Below, in pieces: positions 6,923 to 57,928 of a DNA stretch of 64,000 nucleotides. The stretch is from Naegleria gruberi (Eukaryota): assembly GCA_000004985.1 (NCBI GenBank), contig GG738894.1. The stretch is one strand, 5' to 3'. The translations under genes were made by a program, and so were the position numbers. Under the pieces are notes generated by a model. The model saw only the letters and a list, made by a program, of their open reading frames with translations, was not told where the DNA came from and did not search any database. How positions within the stretch are numbered: position 1 is the first letter of the stretch; the number at the start of each line of letters is the position of its first letter.

Positions 6923-9127
6923 ATGAAAACATTCCTCTCTAAACATTCCTTGCTGCCATCAAAATCAACGACAGGTGGCAGCACTGGTAAATCAAATCAA
7001 GACATGGCAAATTCAAAAACCGAATTAGAAGAAGCAACTATCGAAAGTGCACTTCATGATCCGAAATTACTAACTGTTGGTTCCGAACCTTCCATGAGTA
7101 AACAAATTTCCAAATCTCAAGGTCAATTCGATGATGGAATTTTGAAACGAGCCGAAAAGAGTTTTGGAGGTTTTTTCAAAGCATTGAGGAATGAGAAGGA
7201 TGACAATCAGAAAAAGAAGAAACCAAACAAATTTTCCAACTCTCTGCATAATATAAACAAGATGACTGATGACGTGACTAGTCCAAAAACAAGTCAACCT
7301 AATTTACAAAAGAATGGTACTGGTTCATTTCTCACTCTTCCCAATTTAAAAGCACCAGATGATCAGAGATTAAGTATTACATCTTATGACAGTAGTTGTC
7401 ATTCAATGAGTCAGGGAAATTTAGAAGAATTGTCTCCATCACCAAATGCTCAATATTTTCATAAGAGAAGAGAAGGGGAGAAATCATTGGATGATTTGTC
7501 GCCAGATGTATTGGGGTATATCATTAGCTTTTTGCCATCTAACTTGGAAATTGTTAAGGAATATTATAGAGATTCGTATAGTCAATTATTAGAAATTAGA
7601 AAGAGAGCTAAACTTTCAATGAATGGAAAGAATAAGATTGAAGCGATTAATAGCAAACAAAAGAAGGCTCTCAAAAAGTTGCTCTATTCTAAAAAGGAAG
7701 CAACTCGATCTTTTGGTGTATTTTCACTTTGTTTTACGAAACGATATTTCTATGAAGAGTTATTCGAAAGGGTTTCATTCTGGCAAAGTTTATGTGAGGT
7801 TTGTAACAGGATTGACTTGAGAAGTTGGGATTCTTTCTGTCAAAAAGTTGATCAATCACATGATGATAAGGAACAAATTGACATGTGGCAGAATATTTAC
7901 AGATATTACAATGAATTTTCTGCCAGATGGGAAATTCATCCAGATTTTGTGCATTCAGTATTCAAGATTTCTCAAAATGATTTGAAAATTAAGAGAAGTT
8001 CCAAAAAGTCAAAACTCAACTCAAGTCATCTTGGACACTTGATTGAATATAAGGATGAATTCAAGAGCTTGTTGAATACAGGTTCCAAAAAAGATTCATT
8101 ATGTGCCATTTCATCCAATTCATTCACTCCTGGTAACTTGTACTATATAGAATGTGAATGCAAGTTTAGTTCAATTTCTTCAAGATTAGCCATAGGTATC
8201 ATGCCAGATACAGATTGTTTCTTTAAGGAGCATCAAGATCCAACAGCTCACAATATGGACTATTCCTTCACCAGCTTTGATGACACAACCTCTCCATTGA
8301 AGAACATTTGCAGAAACTCTCTCAATATGGCTCAAAACATTTCACTCAACTTGTCCAATGTTCATTCACCATTCAATCCAAAAGAATACACCTCTCCTGA
8401 TATGCTCTGTCTCTCCATGCTTGAGAATATGGAAGATTCCCAACTCTTCCTCTCAGGAGACAAGATTAGTATCATTATCGACTATGCCCACACTGAAAAG
8501 AATGTTCTCAAATTGTACTATTGTAACAATTGGGATAGCTCAAAAGAAAGGACTACCTTTGCAAAATCCATCGAGAGAATTAAACTTTACGATAGGACAA
8601 GAGCTGAAGGTCAATTCGCTAATTATCTTCCTCAAAATTTAGCTCTCCAAGATGATAAGGTGTTGAATTACTTGATTAAGGATGAAATTTCACAAATTCA
8701 AAAGGAATGTAAAAAGAATTCTTCAACAACAACAACCACAGAAGACAATGTCAATCAATCATTTGAAGATAGAATTAGTGAACCATTCAAAAAGTACAGT
8801 TCCAGACATGTTTATTTCCTTTCCAAATATAGAAATTCCACAGAACAAAATTATCAATATCCGAAAGGATATAAATCACATGCAAGACGTGAAATTATTT
8901 CATTTTTCAAAGTTGATGAAAAGAATGAAAGTTCACATCCAATCAAATCTTTGAGTTCTGCATTTGATCCGACTAGGGAACGTCCAACTATTTGTACAGC
9001 TGACTTGTACTTGCCAAATATCAAACTTTGCATGTCAAGTCAAGAAGTTGGAGATTCTGTCAAGATTGTGAAACCTTCACTTCCTTATCCACCTTTCTTT
9101 TATCATTTATTATCACAAAAAGAATAA
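6923..9127 (+). CDS. Hypothetical 734-aa protein with a possible F-box-like motif (DDLSPDVLGYIISFLPSNLEIVKEY)
   Basis: Long uninterrupted ORF with a K/S-rich N-terminus. The F-box-like LPxxL...I motif is weak and no other domain is recognised. Confidence 0.45.
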   Translation: MKTFLSKHSLLPSKSTTGGSTGKSNQDMANSKTELEEATIESALHDPKLLTVGSEPSMSKQISKSQGQFDDGILKRAEKSFGGFFKALRNEKDDNQKKKKPNKFSNSLHNINKMTDDVTSPKTSQPNLQKNGTGSFLTLPNLKAPDDQRLSITSYDSSCHSMSQGNLEELSPSPNAQYFHKRREGEKSLDDLSPDVLGYIISFLPSNLEIVKEYYRDSYSQLLEIRKRAKLSMNGKNKIEAINSKQKKALKKLLYSKKEATRSFGVFSLCFTKRYFYEELFERVSFWQSLCEVCNRIDLRSWDSFCQKVDQSHDDKEQIDMWQNIYRYYNEFSARWEIHPDFVHSVFKISQNDLKIKRSSKKSKLNSSHLGHLIEYKDEFKSLLNTGSKKDSLCAISSNSFTPGNLYYIECECKFSSISSRLAIGIMPDTDCFFKEHQDPTAHNMDYSFTSFDDTTSPLKNICRNSLNMAQNISLNLSNVHSPFNPKEYTSPDMLCLSMLENMEDSQLFLSGDKISIIIDYAHTEKNVLKLYYCNNWDSSKERTTFAKSIERIKLYDRTRAEGQFANYLPQNLALQDDKVLNYLIKDEISQIQKECKKNSSTTTTTEDNVNQSFEDRISEPFKKYSSRHVYFLSKYRNSTEQNYQYPKGYKSHARREIISFFKVDEKNESSHPIKSLSSAFDPTRERPTICTADLYLPNIKLCMSSQEVGDSVKIVKPSLPYPPFFYHLLSQKE

Positions 9128-12593: not shown

Positions 12594-14053
12594 TTAGTCC
12601 TTAATTACATGTTCATAATCTTTGGTGTGTTCAAATTCATAATCTAAATGTACATAACATCTTTCAACATCTGGTAATGATTCAATCTTCTTTTGCAATG
12701 ATTCACCAACATCGTGAGAGTCCAAGAGTGGAGTTTCCTTTGGAAGGACAACATCAATCTCAACAATCATGTTAGCTCCAGAGTAGTAGGCCATTACTGA
12801 ATCAACTTGTGTAATTAAAGGACTATGATTCAAGGCCATAAATGTTAATTTTTGAATATATTCCTTGTCTGCAGTCAAGCCAACCAGTTTTGTAATGTGT
12901 TCCAATGATTCCTGAATCCAACTCTTAATAATATAAGTACTCAAAAGAACTGCACCAATAGAATCTAACCACCACAAGTAAGTACTCAAGAATAATGAAA
13001 CAAGTAACAAGCTGTTCGATAAGACATCATTTCTATGATCGAATGCGTAGGCAATTACAGATGGTGAATGTTTGACTCTTCTGCAAACCAAATGGAGAGC
13101 CAATTTGATGAGAATAGTTGCCAACAAGACACCAATACCATACCAATAGAAAATTGAGGAGAGATATTTTGGAATCATAATTCCAAACATCCATTCAACC
13201 TCAGCATTGGAATCAGCAGAGCTATTATTATTGTAAACATCGCCAGTAATGAGACCTGTTACAATTTGAGATATACCTTCCTTGATAATTTGTAAACTTG
13301 CTGTACACATGCAAGTTGCAAAGATAACAAATCCAATTGGTTCCAATCTGTTTCTTCCAATTGGGTATTGTTCTTTCTTCTTCTGTACAATGAAGTAATA
13401 TAAATAATCAAACCAGACAATAAATCGAGAGCTGAATCAATTGTAGACGTAATAACTGAAAGGGAAACTGACAAGACACTCGCAGAACATTTCAACACAA
13501 ATAAGCAAACATTAGTCCAAAATGACAAGTGAATGCACCAATATTCCAATCGTTTCATTGCAGGTGAAACTTGTTCTTCCTGTTTGAATGCATCTTCATT
13601 CATAACAACAGATCTTCCTGTTAAATCACCTTCACTGGTTGTTTCATCTGCATGTTCCAATTTTGACTTGTATAGTTTTGCATACTCATCAACCATTTCA
13701 TTTTGCTTTTCGTAAAACTCAACTACCTTCTTCTTTTCAATATTGGATGTATCAATCAGTGGAAATTGCTTAAAATTTGATTGCCAATCCCTTGTAGCAT
13801 GTTCCACATACGACACATTTACCTTGGGAACTGAAATTGGATTAAAATTTGGACTGGAACCAATTCTATGCGTCATCATTTGTTCAGATGAATTTCCTCC
13901 TTCACCATTAGCAGCAGTAGCAACAATTGGTTTATCATTATTCATGTCCACAACTTCAATCATTTCTTCATCATCTGTTGCAGCAAGTTTGGTCTTTTTC
14001 TTTTTCGCATAGTGGCCATGATTAATTCCCTCCTCTAATATTCCTTCCGACAT
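12594..14053 (-). CDS. Cation diffusion facilitator (CDF) transporter, Mn-type (MTP8-like)
   Basis: STIDSALDLLSGLIIYITSL...(K)KEQYPIGRNRLEPIGFVIFATCMCTASLQ...AYAFDHRNDVLSNS...WWLDSIGAVLLSTYIIKSW...DSVMAYYSGANMIVEIDVVLP...VERCYVHLDYEFEHT is colinear with plant MTP8/Mn-CDF proteins. Homology runs through a frame change near 13350-13375 (see findings). Confidence 0.85.
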
Positions 14054-19660: not shown

Positions 19661-22600
19661 ATGAAACGGGTTGGAATTTCCCAGAGGAAGATCCATCATT
19701 TGATTTTAATTTTGATTTTCCTTGTCTTGTTTGTGATTAATAATTATGAATTATTAATTAATAATCATAATGCTGATTTGGGATCATCACCAGAGGCAGT
19801 GTTCATGGGAGGTCTTGTTAATGGTGCTTCTTATCGATTTTTAGGTGAATTAACCAATTCAACCAAAACAAATGTTTCTGCAGTCTATGTAGATGCACAA
19901 TCAGGTCAATCATTCACTAATTATACTGTATCGACTTCAACTTCAACGATTGGTTTTGGATCATTTTCATATACCTATGAAAGTGATGAATTTTCATGGC
20001 AAATTGTGATGGACAATGAATTGCCTTCATTTACCAATACGAGTAGTAGTATTTCATTGAGATATTATCGATTGGTACATAAGAATATATTGCTGACTGA
20101 TTTATCAAAGAATTTATTTATTAGTGTGGAGAATATTTCGACAGTGTTGACTCCTCTCAATCTGTTGAATGGATCTAATGGATTGGATATTAGTGTGAAT
20201 GGAATGCTTATTAGATTGAATGGAACAACTAAGGGAAAGTACTCCAATTCATCAAAATTGGTGGATATTCCTGAATTGTTTACATCTTCCTATTCATTAC
20301 AATTGTTTTCAATTCAATTGAATACATCAAAATTACAAGATAATAGTACCTATCCTGCAGTGGTAGATCCATCGAAAATTTTGGTCAATTACACTCAACT
20401 CAAAGGAAAGAATCCAACATATTCCTACCAGGTTCTCGAATCAGTGAAGGAATATATCAAGGTTCTTTCAGTAACCACTGTTTCATTGAAGAATTTGTGC
20501 AGTTCTTCCTCTCCTATTGTGGCCTTTACGTGGGGCTCTTGGAAATTGTGGTTCGTTTTGGCCATTGTCATTCTAATGTTGCTCATGCTTGTGGCTTCAT
20601 GGTGGAGGCCATACTTTATTGTTTTCATGACTTTGGTCATTTTGAATCTTTCAGGAATAATTAACCTTACACAAACTCTGAGTGGTTTCTCTAATGATGG
20701 TATGCTGACAGTCTTGCTGCTCTTCCCTATTGTCCAACCATTATCGGAGAATTCATTAGTATTGAGAGGATCCAAGTTAGTATTTGGTACAGCCAAGTAT
20801 GGTTTATGGTTGTGTATGCTTAGATTATGTTTGGTTATTTCAGTAATTAGTCCTTTCATTAATAATACTCCAATTGTCGTTACAGCCCTTCCAATTATTG
20901 TAAGTTTATTATGAATATTTCTCTTATTTTGTTTCTTCTATAATATTTTAATATTTATTTCATTAAAATAGAAAGATTGGGCCAGAGAAAATAACATTGC
21001 TGCCTCCAAATTCTTAATGGCCATGTGTTATATTACAACAGCTGCAGGCTTAATGACCTTGATTGGTACCAGTACAAACATTGTGACCAATGGTCTATTT
21101 ACTGCCTACGGTTATGAGGCTTTCACATTCTACGAATTTTTCTACATTGGATCAATTTTGACATTTATTACAATCATTTATTTGTGTACATATGGATTGT
21201 GGGTCTCTCCAAATAGAAAAGGTGGTATGTTTAGATTGGCCAGAGAAAGAGGTGAACAATTCTTGACAAAACTTGCAGTCGAAAGAAGGAATTCACCTTT
21301 AATTGGTAAGAACAAGACCAAAGTTATTACTTATTTGGGATTGGACAAGTTGGAAGTTGTTGAAATTATCAGAAAAAAGACCAAACAAGCACCAGCCGCC
21401 ACACCATCCAATGACCGATCGAATACTGATTCACCAACTAGGGTGGAGGTGACCACAATTATGAGTTCAAACGATGATGACAATTTGGAACATATTGTGC
21501 CAGTTCCTGACGATTTGACCATTCAACTCTATGATACCATCATTTTCAAAGGTCATCCAACCAATATTTTAAAACTCCACTCCATGGTTGGTGTTTCACA
21601 AAATATTGAACAAGATCCAAAGGAAGAATCCAACATTTTGCACACCATGTTGGGAACTGAAAATTTACAAATCGATACCAATGTAAATAATGCAAACAAT
21701 ACAGAAAAGAAGAGTCCACTTTCTCCAAGAAAGCCATCAACTGCTGAAGAGAATGATCAAGAAGTTGTTGTGGAAATTAGTGATAGTGAGGCTGCTTCTA
21801 CCAATGATTTGATTATTGGTGAGACAAATTCTACAGAGGATCAATTTTCCTCTGCACCACCAATTCCAAAAACCTCATTGAAAAATAAGATTAAGGAACA
21901 AAATCTTCATGAAATGGTTCTCAAAAAGTCAGTTGAAGAAGAAGAAAAGAGAAAGTCTTCTGTTGAAGAAGAGACTGAAATGGAGGAAATACAAATTCCA
22001 AATGATGTGGAAATTCCATCAAACCCTACTGATTCAGAAAAAAGAATAGACACAATTGACAATACAGAAAATAAGACAGTCGACACTACAACTGAAAGTA
22101 AAAAGAAGGAGGATGCCTCTGAAGCAGAATCTGAGAATGAACCAGAATTTTTCGAAGTGGTCATTAGTACCTTCAACCCATGCATGGGTGAATTATACTC
22201 TGATTTTGAAAAGAGATATGGAGTTGTCATTCTTGCAGTTCGTCACAATAAGGGTCTCGAAACTAAAACAGATATCACTGATTTCAAGACTACAAAGGTT
22301 AAAGCAGGAGATACTTTATTACTTATTGGAAAGGCTGATTTCTATTCCAAGTGGCATGAACTAAGGATTTCTATGTCATTTCCAGATGTAATGTTTCACC
22401 AAAGGAGAAGAGCAAACATCAAAAATTTATTGTCAAGATTCCATTCACAAAGAAATCAGTCAACTTGTGGTGGTGGGAACACTTGATTTTCCCATTCTTT
22501 ATTGCAATGATTGCTGTTGCCATTGCTGGATATTCAATGCTTCAATGTGCTATGGTTACTTTGTGTGTTGTAATTATTTTCAGATTAATCAATCCAATTA

Positions 22601-23064
22601 AGGCAATTGAATCTATCGAGTGGCCACTTATTGCCTTGATCGGTTCTAGTTTTGGTATTGGTACTGCAATTACTCAATCAGGTATGGGTGAGGCTCTTGC
22701 AGAATTATTAAGATTGATGAATGTTCCAGTTATTCTACTTCCAGCATTTGTCGTTTTCATTACTCTAGTAGTGACTGCTGTCATTACCAATAATGCTGCT
22801 GTGGCTGTTTGTTTCCCATTGGCTATGGCTATTGCTAGATCGTACGGTTTAAATCCTCGATGCTTTGCCATGTGTGTCTGTATTGCTGCCTCCTCTGTAT
22901 TTGCCACTCCAATTGGCTACCAATGCAATATGATGATTATGGGACCTGGTGGTTATTCCTTTATCGATTATGTGAAAATTGGTTTACCATTGACAATTAT
23001 TTACTTTTTCGCCGTTAGTACATTTGTTCCACTCATTTGGGGATTGGAAGTTCCAAACTTTTAA
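19661..23064 (+). CDS. DASS/CitMHS (SLC13/ArsB-like) anion permease with internal TrkA-C domains and a large glycosylated N-terminal ectodomain; three exons
   Basis: Exons are 19661-20899, 20972-22386 and 22438-23064. Intron 1 is GTAAGT...AAATAG and intron 2 is GTAATG...GTCAAG, both in frame. Permease halves LVFGTAKYGLW...PIVVTALP and KDWAREN...MCYITTAAGLMTLIGTSTN / NLWWWEHLIFPFF...GYQCNMMIMGPGGY flank two TrkA-C-like segments (TIIFKGHPTNI..., GDTLLLIGKADF). Confidence 0.7.
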
Positions 23065-27971: not shown

Positions 27972-30900
27972 TTAATGCTTGTCACTGGATTTTACCGAAA
28001 GTACAGAAGGACGGGTTGAAGATTTGACAGAGAGTGGAGAGTTTCTGGTATTATTTACATTGTTTGAACTGTTTGTGACTGAGAGCTGTTGTTGGGATTG
28101 TTTGATAGGAGTTGTGTTGACCTGTCTTCCAGTTGTTGTTGATGAGCTTGAACCAGTTGCTGTTGTATTGGATGTGCTTGGAGTACTGGAATACTTTTGA
28201 GAGGTAGTCACAACTTTTCCACTATTAACATTTGTATTGACCTTATTCGTTGCTGTTGGTTGATTAGCAGTTGTAGAACTTGTTGTTGTGGACGTAAGCT
28301 TTGGAACTGTATTGGTTGCAGTTGATTTGTTGGCAGTCTGAGTTGTTGGTTTGACTTCGACTGGTGTGGAGGTAAGTTTTGGAACTGTATTGGTTGCAGT
28401 TGGTTTGTTGGCAGTCTGAGTTGTTGGTTTTACCTCCACTGGTAGTGGTAAAATTTCATTATCTTTCAGAACTGTCTTGGCAGAGGTTGAGGTGAGAATT
28501 TGAGGTTCTTCTCTATTACCACACAATCTATTCTTTCTGCATTTTCCTTTGGCATTGGCACTGATTTCGATACCCCTCTTCTCACTGGTGAAAAGTTTGT
28601 TGAGCATGACGAGAGGGTCCGCATCCGATCCAATATATACATTCGATCCGCTATTGCTAAAAACCTTATTATTTACAATATTTCCGAGTCCTTCCTTTCC
28701 AATCTTGATACCTTCAGCCATGCTATTGTGAATTTGATTATTTTCAATTGTTGGATTTCCACCATCCTTTATAAAAATGTTTGCTTCCAAACTTCCAAAA
28801 ATGTCATTATCAGCAATAGTGCCATGAGCACCTGAATGTATTTGAATTCCAACATGAGGAGAGTCACGAATAGTATTACCAGTAATGGTTGGATCTGCCT
28901 TTTCACAAATTTCCAAAGAAACTCCCTTAAAGGTACACTTTTCGATGGATGCATCACATTTTGATCCCTTCAATTTAACAGTACAATGTGGGAGTTTTCC
29001 AGTTGTTTTGGTATTTGGTTTGTACTCTGAATTGTAAACTATCAAATTTCTAATTTTCGAATATCTGACATTGTCAAAGAGAATGACATCCTCAACATCT
29101 TTTGGTTTGTAAAGAATGGCATGTGATTTTCCTTCCGAAATTCCCTTCAAAAAGACACTTCTGTCAATGAGAATTTGTTCCTTATAAACTCCAGGTCGAA
29201 TATTAATAATTGGTGTTGTGAGTGGTCTGGTTGGTTTGATGATTTTTCTTCCGTCTGATGGCCTCACAATGAAAGGCAAGTTGAATTTTTGCATTAAAAG
29301 TCTCTGCTTATCAACAAGTGAAATGTCAAGATTGGAGAGTGGATTACTCTTGACTGGATTGTTTGTTCCCAACATGACTCCTCCACTCGATCCACAATCT
29401 TCATACTCTCCAATATCTCCCAAATTACCAGTTCTAAAACTACTGGCCTTCTTTAGCGAGCCCGAGTCTGAGAAGGCATTCTTCATGGAACTGGCTGAAA
29501 AGGTTTTTGTCAATGAATGAGATGGTAGTGGCCTCTTTGGTATAATTTTCGTAATATCCATTGGAAGAGCATTGATAGCTGTTTGAATGGATGTATAGTC
29601 TCCCTTTCCATTAATATCTACTGTATATTCGAGTGAGTTTTGGAGAGGAATACTTCTCAATTCGGTCAATATTTGAGAGAAGGTTGGACGTTCGTCTGGA
29701 TCCTGTAAACAACAAGTCGAAACCAATCTAACAAAGCAATCAATAATTGGTGATTCTTGTGCCAATTTTTCAGCATTTTCAATCTTTGGTCTTTGTCCCA
29801 TAATTACCTGTGAAGCTACAGTGAATGGATTTTGAACATCGTGAAATGGAATTAAGTGAGTAATCAACTCGTACATGACCATTCCGAAACTGTAAACGTC
29901 AGCTTTTTCTCCTGAAGATGCTGCAGAACTGAACATTTCCTGTTTTTCAAGTTTCGAATATAATAAGTAAAGTAGTAATATTTGATAATAATTTGTTGCA
30001 TAATTTGAATAATAAATTGATATTAAAAGTCAATGCAAAAATACTTACTGGAGCCATCCATCCAGATGTACCTTTCATACCAGATACTCCTGAATTTCTA
30101 TTTCTCACAGAAGACAATCCAAAATCTGAAATTTTCGAAATCAAATTCTTATCCAACAACACGTTATGACTCTTCAAATCTCTGTGAATGATTGGTTTTG
30201 GTCTCGAGTGCAAATGATGCATTCCTTCGGCAATATCAATGGCAATTTGTAATTTCATTTCATTGCTGAGAATTGGTTGTGATTGGAGGAATTTCTTGTA
30301 CTTGTCTGCTTGTTCATCCTCATCATCCATTGGAGATTCGACAATGGTGAGTCCAGTTCCGAGAAGTTTCTTTGTGGTTGGTGTGATCACTTGTCTATTG
30401 TTTTGTTGATTTGAAGGAGGTTTTAATTTGCCATTCTGTGATGATTCATTGGTTGGTGAGAGTTGAGAAGAGTTTTGTTTCTTGGATTTCATCAGAGGTT
30501 CATAGTCATACTCTGGAAAGGTTGTTTCTAATACTTTATGAAGAGAGAAGGGCAGAAATTCCTATTTTTCAATATTACATTATATATTAATTATATATTA
30601 GAATATTAATATGATGTTGTGTGTTGTTGTTATTAATATTATTCCGAATGATGTTTTCCAATTAATTAAATTAAACATTATAATAACAATTAAATTGTTG
30701 GAAGAAGTTAAACACAAATATAATGGAGAGAAGAGTCATAAGAAGAAGAAGAAATTACACTTAGAAAAGAGAGAAATAATTAAACAACTCACCATAACAA
30801 TATAAACACACTGACTATCATCGGACCAACCAAAAACATTCAAAATATTGGAATGTTGTACTCGTAACATGATGGCAATTTCATTCAAAGTCTCCTTCCA

Positions 30901-45537: not shown

Positions 45538-46245
45538 ATGATCTTTAGACAATTATTCTCTGCTGATACTTGCACAATGACTTTTATTTTGGGATGCGAA
45601 CAAACTGGACAAGCTGCCATTGTTGATCCTGTCATTGAAGAATGCGAAAGAGATGCCAAGTTGGCTAAGGAATTGGGATTGACTATTACACATATTTTGG
45701 ATACTCACGTTCATGCTGACCATATTACTGGTGGTATTGCCTTGAAGAAACACTTCCCACAAGCTACTCATGTTTATAGTATGCATTCCGGAGTTACTTT
45801 CACTACAGGATTGACTTTGGCCAAGGAAGGTGATGTTATTCAAGTTGGTTCTCTCAAGATTCACGTTTTGGAAACTCCAGGACACACCAATGGTTGTTTG
45901 ACCTATTATACCGATGATAAGAAGATGGTTTTCACTGGTGATGCCTTGTTCATCAGAGGATGCGGAAGATGTGATTTCCAACAAGGATCTGCCTCCAAAT
46001 TGTATGATTCCATCATGAAGATTTATTCTACATTGCCTGATGATTGTTTGGTCTATCCTGGTCACGACTATAAGGGCATGATGTTCTCCAGCATTGGTGA
46101 TGAAAAGAAGAATAATCCAAGAATTTTCGCAACTCAAACTCGTGAAGGATTCTGTGAAATTATGAATAACTTAAAGTTGCCAAATCCTAGATATCTTGAT
46201 GTTGCTTTGCCAGCTAACTTGTTGGGTGGTGTCAAGACTAATTAA
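45538..46245 (+). CDS. ETHE1: Persulfide dioxygenase ETHE1 (metallo-beta-lactamase fold, glyoxalase II family)
   Basis: MIFRQLFSADTCTMTFILGCEQTGQAAIVDP...THVHADHITGG...ETPGHTNGCLTYY...FTGDALFIRGCGRCDFQQGSASKLY...PGHDYKG...NPRIF is colinear with human ETHE1 (MIFRQLFESESCTYTYLLGD...HCHADHITGSG...SPGHTPGCVTF...[25 protein letters not shown]...PAHDYHG). Confidence 0.9.
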   Translation: MIFRQLFSADTCTMTFILGCEQTGQAAIVDPVIEECERDAKLAKELGLTITHILDTHVHADHITGGIALKKHFPQATHVYSMHSGVTFTTGLTLAKEGDVIQVGSLKIHVLETPGHTNGCLTYYTDDKKMVFTGDALFIRGCGRCDFQQGSASKLYDSIMKIYSTLPDDCLVYPGHDYKGMMFSSIGDEKKNNPRIFATQTREGFCEIMNNLKLPNPRYLDVALPANLLGGVKTN

Positions 46246-47303: not shown

Positions 47304-49998
47304 ATGTCCTCATCGAATAACAATAGCAAAACAATACGTTTCTTTTCGGATACCAATTCGAATACACTTATCAGAAACTCACCATCCAACAATACAAACT
47401 TAAAGGACAACTCTAATCCCATCCTCTCCATCACCACCACCACAACTCCCAACAACAACAAATCCACCACTCAATCTCCTCACCATTTAGACTTTCAACT
47501 TTCTCCAAGTACTTTACAAAACACTCGCAAATTCTCCCTCAACAAGGATATATTAATTTCCATGATCAATAATTCATCTACATCTGCTACATCTCCATCC
47601 TCTTCATCTATAAATTCTCCTTCATCATCTTCATCATCATCACAACAATTAAATAATAATTTTTCATCATCAAATAATTTATTCAATTCCGTTGATCCGG
47701 ATTCGAGGAGGCGGAGTAGTGGCGGAGAAAATATTAATATCGGTAGTGGTAATGGTAGTGGTAATAATAATGCGAGTGTTAATAGTTTGGGAGGTGCAGG
47801 GAATAATTCAGTTCTCTTTTTGAATTTGGACGAAAGATTGGCCATGCAAACACAGAATGAATTGAATTCTTCGAGACCGATCAATCATCAGAGGAATAGA
47901 CATAAGGGATCTGGTGGTATTTCTGAATATTCATTTACGGTGGATGATTTGATATTGCCAAATAGTGATATATCATCACCTAGATTGGCAATTTCAAGTA
48001 ATTTAAATTCGAATATTGTTTCTTCTAATGTTTCGAATGCGAAGAGTCCAACTCCTCATTCAAAATCAAATTCAACGACTACAGCTACCTTTGTACCATA
48101 TATTTCTCCTTTAAATACTTCGAATAGTTTGGAAAGTAATGAATTGGGAACTACAGAATTTGTCAATTTGGATCTCACTTCAATTTTACCTCATGGAAAA
48201 TTATTGAGATTCTTCCTTGTGAATAATCAGGACTATTTCACAGACACTGTCCAATTGAGAAAACACAGCCCCGTCATTGCTCAGGAAATTGATTTCCAGC
48301 AACGATTGAATGAATTTGAAAATCAAAACACTGGATTCTTTTCAGATATTTCCATTAGATTTGTACCGAGTGGAAGAGAGATTCGTGCCCATAAATTCAT
48401 TCTCTCCATGTATAGTCCCGTGTTGGCTACACTGTTTAGTTCGAGATGGAAGGAAACTCATGATAATGTCATTGAGGTTTTGACTGAAGTTAGTAATCAG
48501 AGTGGTGGTGGTGTAAATTTTGAGGAGGTTGACGATGAGCAATTATTTGTGGAAATGATTCTCTGCATGTATAGTGGTCAGATTTATCAAGTGGAGCAAC
48601 ATTTAATTGTTCCATTGTTGGAGTTATCTGACAAGTATCAATTTACAGAATTGTCGAGAGCTTGTGAGGAGTATTTGAGAGTTCACTTGAATGAACACAA
48701 TTGCATTTCATTGCTCTATCTTGCCAATGGAATTTCCATTGAGAATACTCTTCAATCCTCTGCAAATACGAGACTTTCCATTTCATCAACAACTGGAAGC
48801 AAGTATTCAAAGGGAAAGTTTGATCGATTGAAAGAGAGAGCACTCGCCTACATTGATACACATTTCGAGTTGGTTTCCAAGACCAAGGCATTCCTCTTTT
48901 TAGATGTTAACATGTTGATTTTCCTCCTTAATCGTGGTGAGCTCAGAGTTGATTCTGAGGATGTCATTCTCAGTGCCATTTTAAATTGGTGTGATGGTGA
49001 TCTGTGCAATAGGAGAGAACTCTTATTCTCAACTCTATTGGAACATGTTCGATTGTACCACCTCTCTCCCAATCGATTGGCTCATTTGGGTGAAGTATTG
49101 GAAAGGTACACTGGAACATTGGAGAATTCCTCTCTCATGATGCCATGGATGAATAGAATCATGCAAGCCATGTCCTATCAAATGTCTCACACTCTCGGTT
49201 TCCAACTCTCTCAGAGTATGCAACAGAAAATTGCACTCGAATGTCCTCCAAGAAAGAGAGCTACTCAAGATATTACAAGAATTTCAAATTTATTATCACA
49301 GGAGCAATTTTTACAAATTGCAGAGTGGATTAATGAGCAAGGAAAGCAAGGATTGATGAAGGATGTTTCTGAAAGGTTTGTTTCCATTTTCCCACTCTAA
49401 TTGATTAATTTTCTAATAATTTTTTGTAAATATATACTTCACACATTTTACAAATATTTCACACAAATACAATCTCAAACTAATCAGAGAATGGCTACTT
49501 CTCTACAGAGGAACAAGGGATGGTTTTCAAGGTAAAGCTTTCCATGCCAAATGTGATGGAAAAGGTCCAACTTTTTGTGTCATTAAAACAGATAAGGGAT
49601 TTCTATTTGGAGGATTCACATCCAAGAGTTGGCACAGTAACAACACTGATGAGAGTGACGAATGTGCATTTTTATATTCTCTCTACAATCCCTATCTGAA
49701 CAACAAAATGACAAGATTTAAAATCAAACCTGGAATGTCAGCTGCCATTGGATGTTATGCAAACTTTGGAGTAATTTTTGGTGGAGGAAGAGATTTAATT
49801 CTCTATTCTGAAAGTAATATTAACAATTCGAGTCATTGTGAATTCTTTGGCCACACTTATCAATTACCAAATTTAGCAGGAGTTTGCTATGGATCTCTGA
49901 AGAGTAAAACCTTCTTCAATGGAACTGAACAGTTTAGAGTGAATGATTGTGAAGTTTTTGGATTAGTTCCATCCTCAAATAAATTCCTTACCAAGTAA
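47304..49998 (+). CDS. BTB/POZ-BACK protein with a C-terminal TLDc domain; two exons (47304-49375, 49488-49998)
   Basis: S/N-rich N-terminus. BTB is SDISIRFVPSGREIRAHKFILSMYSPVLATLFSS...; the BACK-like region is ...LIFLLNRGELRVDSEDVILSAILNWC.... A 112-nt intron (GTTTGT...AATCAG, phase 2) joins ...KDVSE-R-EWLLLYRGTRDGFQGKAFHAKCDGKGPTFCVIKTDKGFLFGGFTSKSW...FGGGRDLILYSES...EVFGLVPS, a classic TLDc signature. Confidence 0.7.
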
Positions 49999-50740: not shown

Positions 50741-51628
50741 TTACTTTTTCATATCCAAAAGGACAAATTCAGTCATTGAATTCACTCCCTCAATGAATAA
50801 TTCCTCTTCAGTGGATGAATCTGAATGAATGAAACAACCATCTCCTTCTTTCAATGTTACAATTTCTTGATTGTTTCCATGAGAAAGTTTGATTGAAATT
50901 GGGTTTTCTAAATTTGGTGATTTGAATAGTTTCATTTTCAGATAATTGGAAATGAAAGGGTTAGCTTTACGAAGTAAAGAAGAAAACAAACCATTTAGTT
51001 TAGAATCTTCAACTGAAGATGATCCAATTCTACTCATAATTGGAACGTGAATATAAATTTGACGACCAGGTTGCAAAGTATGATTGACTTTCTTTCCAGA
51101 TTCCAATAAACTTGAAAGTACATAAATATCTTGATCAATTCCAATAAATTCTTCACTCAATTTGGCACTTTCGTTTGGAACAATCATTAAACGCAATTGA
51201 TTCAGTTTTTGTTCTGGTGTGAAATCTTTCGTTTGATAATTTGGTTTCGAATTGAAATTTCGAGGTTTCACCCAAATTTGTAAGAATTTGACATGCTCAT
51301 TCTTATCCCTATTAAACTCACTGTGATAAACTCCACTTCCAGCTGAAGTAAACTGAACTGAACCCTTCTTACAAACTTCTGTATTTCCCATAGAATCTGA
51401 ATGAGTCAAATTTCCAGACAAGATATACGAAAATATTTCATAATTCTGATGAGGATGCATTGGAAATCCGCTTGATGGCTCCACTGTATCTTCATTCAAT
51501 ACTCTCAATGGTCCGAATTGAGTAAACTTTTGATTTCGATAGCTTGAAAAGGAAAATGTGTGGTAGGTATCAAGCCAGCCTTCATCATAGTGTCCTCTTT
51601 CTTCTGATGGTCTAATTTCAAATTTCAT
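50741..51628 (-). CDS. Pirin-family cupin protein (YhhW/quercetinase-like)
   Basis: GFPMHPHQNYEIFSYILSGNLTHSDSMGN fits the pirin N-terminal cupin motif HPHRGFETVTYvleG. The 295-aa length suits a bicupin. Confidence 0.8.
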   Translation of the reverse strand: MKFEIRPSEERGHYDEGWLDTYHTFSFSSYRNQKFTQFGPLRVLNEDTVEPSSGFPMHPHQNYEIFSYILSGNLTHSDSMGNTEVCKKGSVQFTSAGSGVYHSEFNRDKNEHVKFLQIWVKPRNFNSKPNYQTKDFTPEQKLNQLRLMIVPNESAKLSEEFIGIDQDIYVLSSLLESGKKVNHTLQPGRQIYIHVPIMSRIGSSSVEDSKLNGLFSSLLRKANPFISNYLKMKLFKSPNLENPISIKLSHGNNQEIVTLKEGDGCFIHSDSSTEEELFIEGVNSMTEFVLLDMKK

Positions 51629-52527: not shown

Positions 52528-55500
52528 ATGCAAGCCTCATCTAGTGGACAATTTGAATCCGATGGAGAGGGTTCTGATTTTTTGACAAATAACAATAATA
52601 TTAATGGTGGAGGTGGAGGAACCAATGGTGCTCCCTTAGCAAATCCACAACAAGCAATGAGTAATGTCGGAACGAGTAGTGTTGGTTCGACAGTTTCAAC
52701 TAATACCGATTCTAATCTTTCAAAGAATGTTGTGTCCATGTTTAGAGATCAATTCATTGGATTTATGATATCATTCAATGCAAAAGTATCGAGAATTTCC
52801 AAGCTAAAGTATGGTATCCTTAATATTTTGATATATGTGTACTTGTGGTACGTTACAATGGTACTCTCCTCTTGTCCTTCAAGAATTGATGAAGAAACAT
52901 CTGCATCTGCATCATCATCTTCAACAACATCTTCCTCACATCACTACTTGTGGGGAGAAATACCAGGTTGGATTCATAGAGCCTTATTCTATCCCATAAA
53001 TTTTGGCGTAGAACATTACCCTTACGAGCTAACATTGACAATATCTGCGCTATATCTGCTTGCTGAGGTTATTTGCATTGGACTCTTAGTTCTCTTTCAA
53101 GTGGCCAAGAATAAGGGAAGCAAATGGAGTGAAAAGATTAATTCAATTGCTTCCAAACTGATACTTTTCCTTATTGTGACTTCACATTTTGCATTGTGGA
53201 TTCATACAGTACCTATGGCACCACTCGAATCAATACCACTAGGACACGGTTCATCAACAATAACGAGTAGTTCATCATCATCAAAAACATCTTCTTCAGC
53301 AGAGGAGGACACTTATCTTTACTATTATCCTTCTCTTTCAATTAGTTCAACAGTGAATATTATTTTCATAGTGATTGGTGCACTTGGTGTGGTTTGCAAT
53401 GTTGGAGTGACACTGTTGGGATTCATTCTCACTGCAGAAACTGTTCCACCAATGAAGAAATATTCCTTATTTTCAATTGATAGAGTGGAGCCAACAGCTG
53501 TTCTTCTTTTCACAAATCAATTGAGTGTAATTGTTACTGTTATTGTAACTTCTCATTTGGCAGTCGTGTCGAGTGCATTCAAGATTGTAATCTCTGGAAT
53601 ATGCTTGATTTTCTTCATGAACAAAATACCCCACTACAGAAAGTGGGAGAATTCTTTAATGGTGGGAGTAATGTTTGGAAAGACTTTGGGAAGTATTGGA
53701 CCTCTTGTTTCTGATCTAATAGTCTCGGGCGAAACAAATGCAACTACTCTTGGAGGAGCACTAACTGGTGTCACTATTGGATTGCAAGTAATTGGATTCA
53801 TTATAGGATTCATTGGATTTTACATTTATCTAAGCATGATAACTAGGTCTGTTCGTAAATTCTTATTATCAGAATTTGAGGATAAGAAGAAGGATAAAAT
53901 AGGAGCACAACAAGCATTTGCCTATTTTGAAGAGAATAAGAATATGAAGAAGCTGTCACTCTATATCAAATTATCAATGGGAGAAAATGGTTCTGCAAAC
54001 TTTAATGTGGCCACTCGATTTGTGAGGAATATTGGTGTTTCCAGAAGTATGACCAATGTGGATTTCCTCATTACAGCAGCCATATTCTCTGCATTCCATC
54101 CGGATGTAGATGACCAATTTACATGCATTGCCAATGCCATTCATTTACTTCAGAGAGCTCAAAAACAACATCCATCACTCTCGTTCAAGTACATGATCAT
54201 GTTAAGGCATAAGGAAATTGAGGAGAATATGAATACCATATCTGCTATTAATATTGAATTGAGACAAATGTTACAGACATTGGATAAGAAACAACACTTG
54301 TTACAATATTTCCATAGAGAATTTTACAAGGAACTTTTGAATGAACATCCTTCATTGTCCAAGATGGAAAATATCAATAGAACTATATCCATTATAGTTC
54401 AGGATTGTGATCTCAAGTTTAGAAATTTACTAGTCTCCCATCCTAATGATAAAACCCTATTGAGATCGTACGCCTGTTACTTGGAAACTTGTAGGTGGGA
54501 GAAGGAGCTAGCAGCTGAATACTATGATGATGCCAATCAAATTGAGGAAGAAGAGGCAAGAAAACACCATCATAAGAAGGCAAAGAATAACTTTATGAGT
54601 AGTGACTTTTCAAAGAGAAGAGCCATTCCAACAGCATCAAACAAAGTCGTACCAATATCCAATATGGCTGCTAATTTCGATCGTAAAATTAATGCCTCAC
54701 TGGATTTTGATGTTGTGGAGAAATCGTTAGATCATAAACATGATGAAGAAAATTGGGAATCAGTATCAAATGCAGAGGAGTTATCTAAGAAGGAAGACTT
54801 GTTCAGAATTGCAATCAACACTGAGGATGACCATACTTTTACCAAAATTTGGTTTTCCATATTCACCATGTTCTCTATCATTGTCATTTCTGTAATTATT
54901 GGTTTTGGAATGGGCCAGCTCAAGATTACAACAGACAGAGTTTCACTGCAAGAGAAGGTTTGCTCACTGAGTGGAATTCCTTACCTCATTGTTTCACAAT
55001 TAAGATCAGTGCAGTCCATCTATAGATTCTCTTCCTCTTCGTGGGAGCAAACTCTCAAGGTACCACTGGTTGCAAATATAGCAAAGAATCAATTAAGCAT
55101 GTTGATGGAGAAGGTACAACATGTCAAAGATGCCTCAAACAATGGTGAATTTGTTCCCGAAGTTGTTGAAATGTACAATGAAGTTCGTTGGACGAATATC
55201 ATTCCTATTAAACAACAAACAGAGGAAACAAGCATTCCATTGTACCATAAAGTGAACGGATCGATTGCAGAGTTTGTCGAATCCATGTTGACACAAGCTC
55301 ATGAACTTGAGAAACAGTTTGATAATTTACATGTATTGAATGTTACCATGTCAAATTATAACTTTTTATACTAGTAAGTTTTATATCCTTCATTGAATTC
55401 TCTATAACGTGAAATAGTTATTTGGGAAGAACTGAAATGACAGAAGCTTTTGACTATTTTTGTTCTACCTTCATCAAGAGTTCAGAAAGCACAGAAATAG

Positions 55501-57928
55501 AAGGTCAAAAAGAGTTTTACATTCTCTGTGGTGTTTTGATGGGTACCTATGCTCTACTTGCTTTGATTTATGTAATTGTTTTGAGAACTCAGCTTTTACA
55601 AACATTGAGAATTATTAGATGTATATTCAAGAAGATTCCAAAAGAAGAAAGTGGCAAAATTTTTCATCGTTTTGATAAGAAACTCTATGATGAAATACAT
55701 AAGGAAAATAGAACAGTGTTGACACCTAAGAATCTCTTCCTTGTCACTACCATTTTGATTATTTTGATAACATTCCTTGTGTGTATATTGATCATTATTG
55801 ATTTCGAACAGGGATCACAAGAAATTATGTCCACAATGGTGACAGTCTCATCGCTAAATGATGTTATTACCATTTCTTCAAAGGTTACCTTTACGTTGAA
55901 TGAGTTAATCACAAAAAGTATAATCATGAATGAAAACTGGATTGATTTGAGAGATAGAAACTTGGAAGATTTGAAACAAGCTGCCATAGCATGGAGAGAC
56001 ATTACCATTGGTGGCAGTGAAAATAATTTCAAGCCAACAGTGTTTGGTATTTTACCTGAAATTGATGACTTGTTGGATGGAACCTGCAGCAATAAGACAT
56101 TCCAGGTGTCTGAACCTCTCAATTACACAACAGTCATGTCAGAATTGAGTTGCAGAGGAATGGATCAATTGTTGAATATATTTATGGATAGATCCTATGA
56201 ATTGAGTCAAGATTTTTATTCTAATTACTATGATAAGGAAAGTGCTATGGAGTTGTACTTTACTTACATTTATTTCCTCTCTGTAACTTTCTCAGACAAG
56301 TTATTGGACTTGATAAGTGTGTATGTGAATTTCGCAAAGCATCCAGAAGTTGCCTTAGCAGCGGCATCGACTTCTGTTGGTTTGATATTAATTATCATGT
56401 TGAGCTACTTTGCCTATTCAAATATTTCATCCTATTGGATGGAAAAGCAAAATTTAAGAAGTTTGTTAAATTATATTAATTGGGAATTGATTGAACAAAT
56501 AGACGATTTGAAGCAGTATGCAGTTTCACATAGAATTAAGGAAAATACCTATCAAAGTTTGGAAAAGGTTTCTAGCAAAATTTCCAAGTTCAATGTTTTC
56601 AAATTTGAAGATGGTGACGATGAAGAATCCAACGATCCATTGGCCATGACCAAATCTATTCTATTGGCTGCAGCTGATGGCAGTATCGTTTGTAGTTCAA
56701 ATGGCTCTATTACAATTTTTAATCCAGCAGCTGAAGACATGTTTGGTTTGAAAGGAAGCGAAGTCATGGGAACACACATCACTGATCTATTCTCCATTCA
56801 AGATCAACCTAAAATTGCAAATTTGCTCAAATCCATGAATAGTTCACTAAGTGCCTTCTCTGAAACATTCGAAGCAACAGCTATCCGAAAGAACAAGACA
56901 ATCTTCTCTGTGAAACTCTCAATGAGTGTTTGTATCTTTATGAAGAAGGCCATTGTTTCATGTTTCGTCAAGGATATTACCCCAGAGAAGAAACAAAATG
57001 CTCTCATTGCTGAAGAAAAGAAGAAGAGTGAAGATTTATTATTGAATATTTTACCACTTCCAGTCGCAAATCGATTAAAACAAGGTGAAACATTCATTGC
57101 TGAAAAGTTTACAGATGTCACTGTATTCTTTTCTGATATGGTTGGATTTACCAAAATGTCATCAGGAATGGAACCAGATCAATTGGTTAAAATGTTGAAT
57201 ACCATCGTTAATGAATTTGACAAGCTGACAGAAAAGTATTCCATTGACAAGATTAAAACTATTGGAGACGCCTATTTTAGTGTAGGTGGTTTGCATGCTT
57301 CCAAATCAAGTGATCACCCAGAAAGAATGTTAAGAGTAAGTTGTAATAAGTTTACAAAAAAACGCAATATTCACACAAAACATAGTTCTCAATTGATATC
57401 TTTTTCTTTTTGAACAAATTCAACACAGAGACCAACAACAAGATTAACCTAAGAGTTGGCCTTCATACTGGTGGTTGTGTGGGTGGTGTAATTGGCAGTA
57501 AAAAGTTTGCCTATGATTTGTGGGGTGATACCATTAATACTGCCTCGAGAATGGAATCTACATCCATTGCTGGAAGAATTCAATTATCCAGATCTACCTA
57601 TGAGGTAAGTTTCTTTCTAAAAAGATTACAAGATTATTTCTAATACTATTTTCACCTCAATGTTTAGAGAGTTTTTGATTTGGATTTCCAATTTGAAGAA
57701 AGAGATGGAATTGAAGTAAAAGGAAAAGGATTAATGAAAACCTATCTAGTCCATCAAAAACACCATCCAATTGCTTTTGAAGAAGAACACGAAATGACTC
57801 CAATTATTATTGAACCACAAACTTGTCATCCTCCATTATTGGAATCAAACAACATGTCAACACCACTTCTTGAGGAACATTTGGAAAACAATGATGAAAC
57901 CCTAGAGTATACCATTGTCCAACACTAA
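52528..57928 (+). CDS. Receptor-type class III adenylyl/guanylyl cyclase B (multi-TM, extracellular loop, PAS, cyclase), paralog of cyclase A but lacking the USP domain; four exons
   Basis: Exons are 52528-55373, 55418-57335, 57386-57604 and 57668-57928, with introns of 44, 50 and 63 nt (all GTAAGT...AG). PAS is ILLAAADGSIVCSSNGSITIFNPAAEDMFGLKGSEVMGTHI. Cyclase is FFSDMVGFTKMSS...KIKTIGDAYFSVGGL...HPERMLR|FSIDIFFFLNKFNTETNNKINLRVGLHTGGCVGGVIGSKKFAYDLWGDTINTASRMESTS...STYE|RVFDLDFQFEERDGIEVKGKGLMKTYL. The exon 2/3 junction was set by alignment to cyclase A (ERILRFSIDCFNVIRNYNITSRK...INIRIGIHTG). Confidence 0.8.

What the first reader, a model, noticed from the sequence alone, without database searches (positions are those of the whole stretch)
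47304..49998. BTB-BACK protein with a TLDc domain added by a downstream exon
The 698-aa BTB/BACK ORF appears to end at 49400. However a GTTTGT donor at 49376 and an AG acceptor at 49487 splice it in frame (phase 2, codon AGA) to a canonical TLDc exon (EWLLLYRGTRDGFQGKAFHAKCDGKGPT...FGGGRDLILY...EVFGLVPS). BTB-BACK proteins usually end in Kelch repeats. A Cul3-adaptor scaffold carrying a TLDc module (the OXR1/NCOA7/TBC1D24 domain implicated in oxidative-stress responses and V-ATPase binding) is an uncommon pairing. It would be missed by ORF-based annotation.
Basis: partly seen in the sequence, partly recalled or inferred. Interest (0 to 1): 0.5.

Follow-up and report, generated by a model that had tools for sequence, protein, structure and literature searches.

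The report
Truncated Naegleria BTB-BACK-TLDc gene model
The proposed splice is almost certainly real and restores a full BTB-BACK-TLDc protein that the Naegleria gruberi reference annotation cuts short, but the same domain combination is already annotated in sister species and described in insects, so this is a gene-model correction rather than a new kind of protein.

Summary
The window is Naegleria gruberi NEG-M. The 698-aa ORF at 47304-49400 is the reference protein XP_002672866.1 (NAEGRDRAFT_51907), which stops at 49400.

The described GT (49376) and AG (49487) sites are present. Removing this 112-nt, 23% GC intron gives an 860-aa protein with Pfam BTB, BACK and TLDc domains. The TLDc match starts 30 residues before the junction, so the intron splits the domain; the exon does not add a separate module.

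The N. lovaniensis and N. fowleri orthologs encode the junction residues ...SEREWL... in uninterrupted DNA. The spliced product aligns to them without a gap. Of 223 in-frame GT..AG joins, this one scores best against the N. fowleri ortholog. Exon 2 is under strong purifying selection (pN 0.10, pS 0.69) and has no start codon of its own. An AlphaFold2 model (pLDDT 92.5) matches only solved TLDc domains.

The "uncommon pairing" claim fails. The orthologs are annotated BTB-BACK-TLDc, Acrasis kona has one, and Bombyx Bmmp and Drosophila CG7102 are described as such. About one third of the closest TLDc relatives carry a BTB-fold domain.

The likely function, a Cul3 adaptor with TLDc as the target-binding module, is inferred. 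No RNA evidence was available.

The parts
47304..49375 (+). Exon 1: start codon to the first two bases of Arg-691. It encodes the Ser/Asn/Thr-rich N-terminal region, BTB, BACK, a linker and the first 30 residues of the TLDc domain.
   Evidence: Identical to reference protein XP_002672866.1 up to residue 691.
47304..48173 (+). N-terminal low-complexity region (about residues 1-290). It contains short motifs conserved across Naegleria species: RKFSLNKD, DPDSRRRSS and RPINHQRNRHKGSGGISEYSFTVDDL.
48324..48683 (+). BTB/POZ domain (residues 341-460). It includes W382-K383-E384 (48447-48455), which aligns with the phi-x-E Cul3-contact motif.
   Evidence: Pfam PF00651, 52.1 bits. KLHL11 ...GQFSESRSGRVEM aligns with ...SRWKETHDNVIEV. 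The motif is defined in PMC3616122.
48819..49085 (+). BACK domain (residues 506-594). A Ser/Thr-rich insert of about 30 residues lies between BTB and BACK.
   Evidence: Pfam PF07707, 69.2 bits. PDB sequence matches to the BACK regions of KLHL3, KEAP1, KLHL11 and KBTBD2.
49284..49965 (+). TLDc domain (residues 661-850), interrupted by the intron after residue 690/691.
   Evidence: Pfam PF07534, 84.5 bits, profile 5-169 of 170. AF2 pLDDT 92.5. Foldseek top 16 hits are all TLDc structures.
49376..49487 (+). Phase-2 spliceosomal intron, 112 nt, GC 23%, GTTTGT...ACTAATCAG. If it is retained, the in-frame stop at 49398-49400 gives the annotated 698-aa product.
   Evidence: Both splice sites are identical in a second strain, while the intron interior has a 3-nt indel and 2 substitutions. 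The site is intron-less in N. fowleri, N. lovaniensis and Acrasis.
49488..49998 (+). Exon 2: the last base of Arg-691 plus 169 codons and the stop (49996-49998). It encodes the rest of the TLDc domain.
   Evidence: pN 0.10 and pS 0.69 against N. fowleri. One synonymous difference in 511 nt between strains.

Best explanation
Positions 47304-49998 (+) are one two-exon gene of Naegleria gruberi, NAEGRDRAFT_51907. Its reference model is truncated because the 112-nt intron at 49376-49487 was not recognised. The mature mRNA encodes an 860-aa protein with a disordered N-terminal region, then BTB, BACK and TLDc domains. How it most likely works is inferred, not shown. The BTB domain dimerises and, with the first helices of BACK, binds Cullin-3. 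The C-terminal TLDc domain occupies the place that Kelch, MATH or SPRY domains take in other BTB-BACK adaptors and binds the target. In that case the protein is a substrate receptor of a Cul3-RING ubiquitin ligase. The most probable TLDc partner is the V1 sector of the V-ATPase, because every TLDc protein tested so far binds it. My confidence by step is about 0.9 for the gene structure, about 0.5 for the Cul3 adaptor role and about 0.25 for V-ATPase as the partner. The single confidence value given for this explanation refers mainly to the gene structure and domain architecture.
For: Gene structure:
- The Pfam TLD match spans the junction (661-850, junction at 691) at 84.5 bits. The unspliced 698-aa product has only BTB and BACK.
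- N. lovaniensis and N. fowleri encode S-E-R-E-W-L in uninterrupted DNA (TCC GAA CGA GAA TGG), and the spliced gruberi product aligns to them without a gap.
- This join is the best of 223 in-frame joins against the N. fowleri ortholog.
- Exon 2 has 169 open codons with pN/pS of about 0.10/0.69 against N. fowleri. It has no usable start codon.
- A second strain from metagenome contigs has the same intron. Differences are concentrated in the intron (5 of 112 columns) and the 3' flank (about 12 of 116), against 1 of 511 in exon 2.
- The AF2 model of the spliced domain has pLDDT 92.5 and pTM 0.89. The exon-1-encoded helix (residues 666-680) is modelled at about 95.
- The top 16 Foldseek PDB hits are all TLDc domains: NCOA7, Skywalker, OXR2, mEAK7, Oxr1 and Rtc5p. 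The next hit has E = 0.35.

Mechanism:
- The closest solved BTB-BACK sequences are KLHL11, KLHL3, KEAP1, KBTBD4 and SPOP, all Cul3 adaptors.
- The phi-x-E Cul3-contact motif is present as W-K-E. Homologs have W-K-D, M-Q-E, M-R-E and F-K-E.
- TLDc domains of this subfamily are repeatedly fused to Cul3-adaptor-type BTB domains: 29 of 102 carry KCTD-type BTB_2 and 6-7 carry BTB+BACK.
- N. fowleri paralogs have SPRY in the same C-terminal position.
- TLDc-V-ATPase binding is documented in PMC8608904 (read). PMC9263379 and PMC8804929 were seen as title and abstract only.
Against: No transcript evidence was obtainable. The spliced 860-aa sequence is not in the protein collection, and the spliced junction was not found in metagenome contigs. 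From general knowledge, the donor GTTTGT has T at +3 where A or G is usual; the introns of the two sister species in this gene use GTAAGT and GTAGGT. I could not derive N. gruberi's own donor statistics. The putative branch site ACTAAT lies only about 4 nt from the AG. On mechanism, nothing here shows Cul3 binding, and I did not check that N. gruberi has a Cul3. This TLDc subfamily (FHxxCD motif) is only 15-20% identical to the V-ATPase-binding TLDc domains. The position I take to match Ncoa7 S817, matched from my memory of the OXR1 sequence and not from an alignment run here, is Q in gruberi and N in the sister species.
Confidence: 0.85

Rival explanations
1. The annotated 698-aa BTB-BACK protein is the real and only product. 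The downstream TLDc sequence is a decaying remnant, or a separate gene with its own transcript.
For: This is the current reference model, XP_002672866.1. The donor GTTTGT is not the textbook consensus. No RNA evidence was found.
Against: Exon 2 keeps 169 open codons at near-saturated synonymous divergence (pS 0.69) with pN 0.10, so it is a translated sequence under selection. It has no start codon except one giving a 96-aa fragment that begins mid-domain. The first 30 residues of the domain, including a helix modelled at pLDDT about 95, lie in exon 1. The orthologs encode one continuous protein.
Confidence: 0.04
2. Both forms are made. Regulated intron retention gives a BTB-BACK-only isoform of 698 aa that could act as a dominant-negative or alternative adaptor, alongside the full BTB-BACK-TLDc isoform.
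For: A retained intron meets an in-frame stop after only 7 extra codons. Bombyx Bmmp is reported to produce BTB-BACK-TLDc, BTB-BACK and BTB-only isoform classes (bioRxiv 10.1101/2021.07.26.453796). The weak donor would favour incomplete splicing.
Against: The truncated form would carry an unfoldable 30-residue stub of the TLDc domain. N. fowleri, N. lovaniensis and Acrasis have no intron at this site, so no conserved switch can depend on it. No expression data were available.
Confidence: 0.12
3. The gene structure is as proposed, but the protein is not a ubiquitin-ligase adaptor. In this reading BTB-BACK serves only as an oligomerisation scaffold, and the TLDc domain acts directly, for example as a stoichiometric regulator of V-ATPase assembly like Oxr1 or Rtc5, or in an oxidative-stress role.
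For: Known TLDc proteins act by direct binding, without ubiquitination (PMC8804929 and PMC11066047, abstracts). Many BTB proteins do not bind Cul3 (general knowledge).
Against: BTB plus BACK with a phi-x-E motif is the hallmark of Cul3 adaptors. The same TLDc subfamily is also fused to KCTD-type BTB, RING and B-box domains, all parts of ubiquitin-ligase architecture.
Confidence: 0.3

Closest known systems
Naegleria lovaniensis C9374_012149 (943 aa) and Naegleria fowleri FDP41_006097 (XP_044559336.1, 1007 aa), annotated 'BTB domain-containing protein'
   Same: These are orthologs, 73-76% identical over the aligned regions. They have the same BTB-BACK-TLDc order, the same conserved motifs in the N-terminal region, and 83-85% identity over the TLDc region.
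   Different: They have no intron at the gruberi site. Instead they have a phase-1 intron after ...NNSSHC, which gruberi lacks. They carry much longer low-complexity inserts between BTB and BACK and after BACK. The immediate neighbouring genes differ.
Acrasis kona AKO1_002919 (483 aa, BTB/POZ domain-containing protein)
   Same: It has the BTB-BACK-TLDc architecture in another heterolobosean. It is 35-40% identical (35% in the alignment; 40% over the matched stretches), with an M-Q-E phi-x-E motif.
   Different: It lacks the long N-terminal disordered region. It is intronless and present in two near-identical genomic copies.
Bombyx mori Bmmp (KWMTBOMO06924) and Drosophila CG7102
   Same: They are described as BTB-BACK-TLDc proteins, and the BTB domain is required for function (bioRxiv 10.1101/2021.07.26.453796). 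Reduced CG7102 expression confers hypoxia tolerance in flies (PMC1871610).
   Different: They are animal genes with wing-development phenotypes. I did not obtain their sequences, so orthology against independent fusion is untested. No Cul3 or V-ATPase link has been reported for them in the papers read.
BTB-BACK-Kelch Cul3 adaptors (KLHL11, KLHL3, KEAP1) and SPOP
   Same: They give the best solved-structure sequence matches for the BTB and BACK parts, and the phi-x-E position is conserved.
   Different: The C-terminal substrate-binding domain is TLDc, not a Kelch propeller or MATH domain. There is an extra acidic/Gly insert in the BTB domain (EVSNQSGGGVNFEEVDDE).
TLDc proteins OXR1, NCOA7, TBC1D24/Skywalker, mEAK7 (TLDC1), and yeast Oxr1 and Rtc5
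   Same: They share the fold: Foldseek E of about 1e-9 and target-normalised TM-score up to 0.85. Pfam TLD matches at 84.5 bits.
   Different: Sequence identity is only 15-20%. This protein belongs to a subfamily with an FHxxCD motif, which is mostly fused to BTB-fold domains. None of the characterised TLDc proteins has a BTB domain.

Membership tests
TLDc domain (Pfam PF07534) | Sequence match to the family profile above the curated threshold, over the full length of the profile | tested here: met
   84.5 bits against a cut-off of 24.5, profile positions 5-169 of 170, residues 661-850 of the spliced product.
TLDc domain (Pfam PF07534) | TLDc fold: an N-terminal helix packed on a beta-sandwich, as in zebrafish OXR2 (4ACJ) | tested here: met
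   AF2 pLDDT 92.5 and pTM 0.89. The top 16 Foldseek PDB hits are all TLDc domains; 4acj has a target-normalised TM-score of 0.82 and rmsd 3.1 A.
TLDc domain (Pfam PF07534) | Conserved core residues (the G of RDG, FGG, GxG-D, E-V near the C-terminus) | tested here: met
   G421, F449-G450-G451, G507, G509, D511, E564 and V565 (numbering of the 578-aa query) are invariant in the BTB-BACK-TLDc alignment. They are nearly invariant across 62 and 102 relatives.
TLDc proteins as V-ATPase binders | Physical binding to V-ATPase V1 subunits | not testable with these tools
   Known for Ncoa7, Oxr1, Tldc2, Tbc1d24 and mEAK7 (PMC8608904). Here it is inferred only from the fold.
BTB-BACK Cul3 substrate adaptors | A BTB/POZ domain followed by a BACK domain | tested here: met
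   PF00651 at 52.1 bits and PF07707 at 69.2 bits, in that order. PDB sequence matches to KLHL11, KLHL3 and KEAP1.
BTB-BACK Cul3 substrate adaptors | The phi-x-E motif in the alpha3-beta4 region that inserts into Cul3 | tested here: met
   W382-K383-E384 aligns with F-S-E of KLHL11. Homologs have WKD, MQE, MRE and FKE. The motif is defined in PMC3616122. This test rests on sequence position only.
BTB-BACK Cul3 substrate adaptors | Binding to Cullin-3 and assembly into an active ligase | not testable with these tools
   No experiment was possible. The presence of a Cul3 gene in N. gruberi was not checked.
BTB-BACK-TLDc architecture (Bmmp / CG7102 type) | The three domains in the order BTB, BACK, TLDc on one polypeptide | tested here: met
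   Met for the spliced product, conditional on the splice. The same order is found in the N. fowleri, N. lovaniensis and Acrasis proteins and in five environmental proteins.
BTB-BACK-TLDc architecture (Bmmp / CG7102 type) | Common descent with the insect genes, as opposed to an independent fusion | not tested
   The insect sequences were not retrieved by the word-indexed searches.
U2-type spliceosomal intron | GT...AG boundaries, in-frame restoration of the coding sequence, non-coding composition | tested here: met
   GT at 49376 and AG at 49486-49487. GC is 23% against 36-37% in the exons, and all three frames are closed within the intron. The product is gapless against the orthologs.
U2-type spliceosomal intron | Observed removal from mRNA | not testable with these tools
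   No transcript data were reachable. The spliced protein and the junction are absent from the collections searched.

The most novel reading that the evidence does not exclude
BTB-fold-TLDc proteins (the BTB-BACK type here and the more numerous KCTD-type fusions) could form a widespread, uncharacterised class of Cul3 ligase receptors in protists and invertebrates. In this reading the TLDc domain docks onto the V-ATPase and couples proton-pump assembly or turnover to ubiquitination. N. gruberi would offer a tractable member, with a species-specific intron inside the TLDc domain that could switch the receptor module off by intron retention.
Probability: 0.12. Interest if true: 0.6.

Novelty: new member of a known kind. 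Interest (0 to 1): 0.2.

Why it matters
The practical value is a corrected gene model. The N. gruberi reference protein NAEGRDRAFT_51907 (D2VSH6) lacks its C-terminal 169 residues and carries 7 spurious ones. Domain censuses and orthology tables built on it will therefore miss a TLDc protein and misclassify a BTB-BACK protein as lacking a target-binding domain.

More broadly, the survey shows that TLDc domains of this subfamily are habitually attached to Cul3-adaptor-type BTB domains. Work on mammalian TLDc proteins, none of which has a BTB domain, does not reflect this. It suggests an untested link between TLDc and ubiquitin ligases.

Tried and rejected
- RNA evidence. The exact 860-aa spliced product is not in the 15-billion-protein collection. 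The 31-nt spliced junction has no match in metagenome contigs. No gene record could be retrieved for the N. gruberi contig itself.
- N. gruberi splice-site preferences. I tried to derive them from other split ORF pairs in the window by brute-force enumeration of GT..AG pairs. There were too many candidates per pair (26-151) to be informative, so I abandoned it.
- Introner-like repeat. I tested whether the intron is a repeated element; it has no second copy in the window.
- Other BTB or TLDc genes. tblastn found none in the window.
- Insect homologs. A profile search with a BTB-BACK-TLDc alignment returned only 18 hits and no insects, because of the word index.
- A more distant Naegleria-like relative, P0010. 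Its contig ends before the TLDc region.
- Residue mapping. The statement about the S817 equivalent rests on my memory of the OXR1 sequence.
- Assembly error. I rejected a sequencing or assembly artefact as the cause of the stop, because two independent contigs of another strain show the same intron.

Full report
**Source and annotation status**

Exact-sequence look-up places the window in Naegleria gruberi NEG-M. The 235-aa ORF at 45538-46245 is XP_002672865.1 (NAEGRDRAFT_83261, persulfide dioxygenase). The 698-aa ORF at 47304-49400 is XP_002672866.1 / EFC40122.1 / UniProt D2VSH6 (NAEGRDRAFT_51907, 'predicted protein'), on a contig of 499,907 bp. The public model for this gene therefore ends at the 49400 stop. 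The 860-aa spliced product is not present anywhere in the collection.

**The observation**

- The ORF ends ...KDVSERFVSIFPL*.
- GTTTGT begins at 49376, after two bases of codon 691.
- CAG ends at 49487.
- The join creates AG|A (Arg) and continues EWLLLYRGTRDGF... to the stop at 49996-49998.
- The intron is 112 nt and 23% GC, against 36-37% in the exons. It is closed in all three frames.
- The ATG at about 49490 opens a 14-codon dead-end frame.
- The TLDc frame has no start codon except one producing a 96-aa fragment.

Pfam finds three domains in the spliced protein: BTB (341-460), BACK (506-594) and TLD (661-850, 84.5 bits, essentially the whole profile). The TLD match begins 30 residues upstream of the junction. 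The intron therefore cuts through the domain and does not separate a scaffold exon from a TLDc exon.

**Is the splice more than chance?**

By itself, no. I counted 223 stop-free in-frame GT..AG joins in 48900-49900. The comparative evidence decides the matter.
- The N. lovaniensis ortholog (C9374_012149, 943 aa) and the N. fowleri ortholog (FDP41_006097, 1007 aa; genomic contigs L002 and L003) read ...KDLSEREWLVLYRG... from uninterrupted DNA, TCC GAA CGA GAA TGG.
- The spliced gruberi product reads ...KDVSEREWLLLYRG... and aligns without a gap.
- Scored against the N. fowleri protein, the 49376/49487 join is the best of the 223, at 1101 against 1047 for the next.
- Exon 2 is strongly constrained, with pN 0.10 and pS 0.69 against N. 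fowleri.
- Metagenome contigs of a second gruberi strain (L004, L005) contain the same intron with identical splice sites. Between the strains, differences fall at 5 of 112 columns in the intron and about 12 of 116 in the 3' flank, but at only 1 of 511 (synonymous) in exon 2. All indels in exon 1 are multiples of three. This also excludes an assembly artefact.
- An AlphaFold2 model of residues 648-860 has mean pLDDT 92.5 and pTM 0.89. The exon-1-encoded helix (666-680) is modelled at about 95.
- Its 16 best Foldseek matches in the PDB are all TLDc domains: NCOA7, Skywalker/TBC1D24, zebrafish OXR2, mEAK7, Oxr1 and Rtc5p. The next hit has E = 0.35.

What is missing is RNA. No transcript data could be reached. 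From general knowledge, the donor has T at +3, which departs from the usual A or G. The sister species' intron in this gene uses GTAAGT or GTAGGT.

**How common is the architecture?**

The 'uncommon pairing' reading does not hold.
- Both Naegleria orthologs have all three domains.
- Acrasis kona AKO1_002919 (483 aa, intronless) has them too, as do several environmental proteins.
- A preprint describes Bombyx Bmmp and Drosophila CG7102 as BTB-BACK-TLDc proteins with isoform classes lacking TLDc.
- An older study found that reduced CG7102 expression confers severe hypoxia tolerance in flies.
- An exhaustive HMMER search of 1.84 billion representatives gave 10,858 hits at E<=1e-3. Of 102 top hits scanned with Pfam, 101 have TLD, 29 also have KCTD-type BTB_2, 7 BACK, 6 BTB and 2 BTB_3. 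Single cases carry RING, B-box or SPRY.
- A profile of the closest TLDc relatives matches KCTD5, KCTD16, BACURD and SHKBP1 in its N-terminal half.

TLDc domains of this subfamily (FHxxCD motif) are thus habitually fused to Cul3-adaptor-type BTB domains.

**Likely mechanism (inferred)**

The BTB-BACK part is closest to KLHL11, KLHL3, KEAP1, KBTBD4 and SPOP. It keeps the phi-x-E Cul3-contact motif as W382-K383-E384; homologs have WKD, MQE, MRE and FKE. N. fowleri paralogs carry SPRY where this protein carries TLDc. This fits TLDc acting as the interchangeable target-binding module of a Cul3 adaptor.

All characterised TLDc proteins bind the V-ATPase (for PMC8608904; abstracts), so the pump is the leading candidate partner. 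However, identity to those domains is only 15-20% and nothing here tests binding.

**Verdict**

The splice is very probably real, at about 0.9. The result is a correction of a truncated reference gene model and a new member of an already known domain architecture. Interest is low. The residual novelty lies in the uncharacterised BTB-TLDc class as a whole, not in this locus.

Noticed in passing
window 49376-49487; L001 about 8665-8757; L002 about 8131-8226; L006 3001-4452: Intron positions in this gene differ between close relatives. N. gruberi has a phase-2 intron at SER|EW. N. fowleri and N. lovaniensis lack it but share a phase-1 intron after ...NNSSHC, which gruberi lacks. The Acrasis kona homolog is intronless. 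This indicates intron gain or loss within the genus.
   Followed up: partly
window 50741-51628 (-): This 295-aa ORF is pirin-like (Pfam Pirin on the matching gene of contig L004). Its exact sequence is not in the protein collection, although both upstream neighbours are. The reference model for this gene probably differs from the plain ORF, through another intron or a different start.
   Followed up: no
window 47526-47549, 47694-47720, 47874-47951, 48156-48218: Short motifs inside the otherwise low-complexity N-terminal region are conserved across Naegleria species: RKFSLN[KR]D, D(P)DxRR.SS, RPINHQRNR[HN]KGSGGISEYSFTVDDL and EF[VI]NLDLTSILPH[GQ]KLLRFFL. They are also present in the more distant relative P0010. 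They may be phosphorylation or docking sites.
   Followed up: no
window 1157-3920 (+), 21017-23064 (+), 27972-30492 (-), 52528-57413 (+), 12594-14053 (-): Several pairs of long same-strand ORFs abut or overlap. They could be single genes split by short introns or frame changes, like the one studied here. The reference models for these were not checked.
   Followed up: no
proteins P0014, P0015, P0038 (representatives search): Some of the closest TLDc relatives are very large proteins with 6-8 tandem TLDc matches (1513-1865 aa). Of the 156 proteins with a TLDc match in the set I scanned locally, 87 have two or more TLDc stretches.
   Followed up: no
P0109 / P0163 (N. fowleri FDP41_011640, FDP41_011103): N. 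fowleri has two near-identical BTB-BACK-SPRY paralogs whose BACK region resembles that of this gene. They point to a small family of BTB-BACK adaptors with swapped C-terminal modules.
   Followed up: partly
L006 and L007 (Acrasis kona JAOPGA020000676.1 and JAOPGA020001125.1): The Acrasis BTB-BACK-TLDc gene and its neighbours (an ADH-like gene, a cNMP-binding EF-hand protein and a ubiquitin-like gene) occur on two contigs with the same gene order. These are probably allelic haplotigs or a recent duplication.
   Followed up: no
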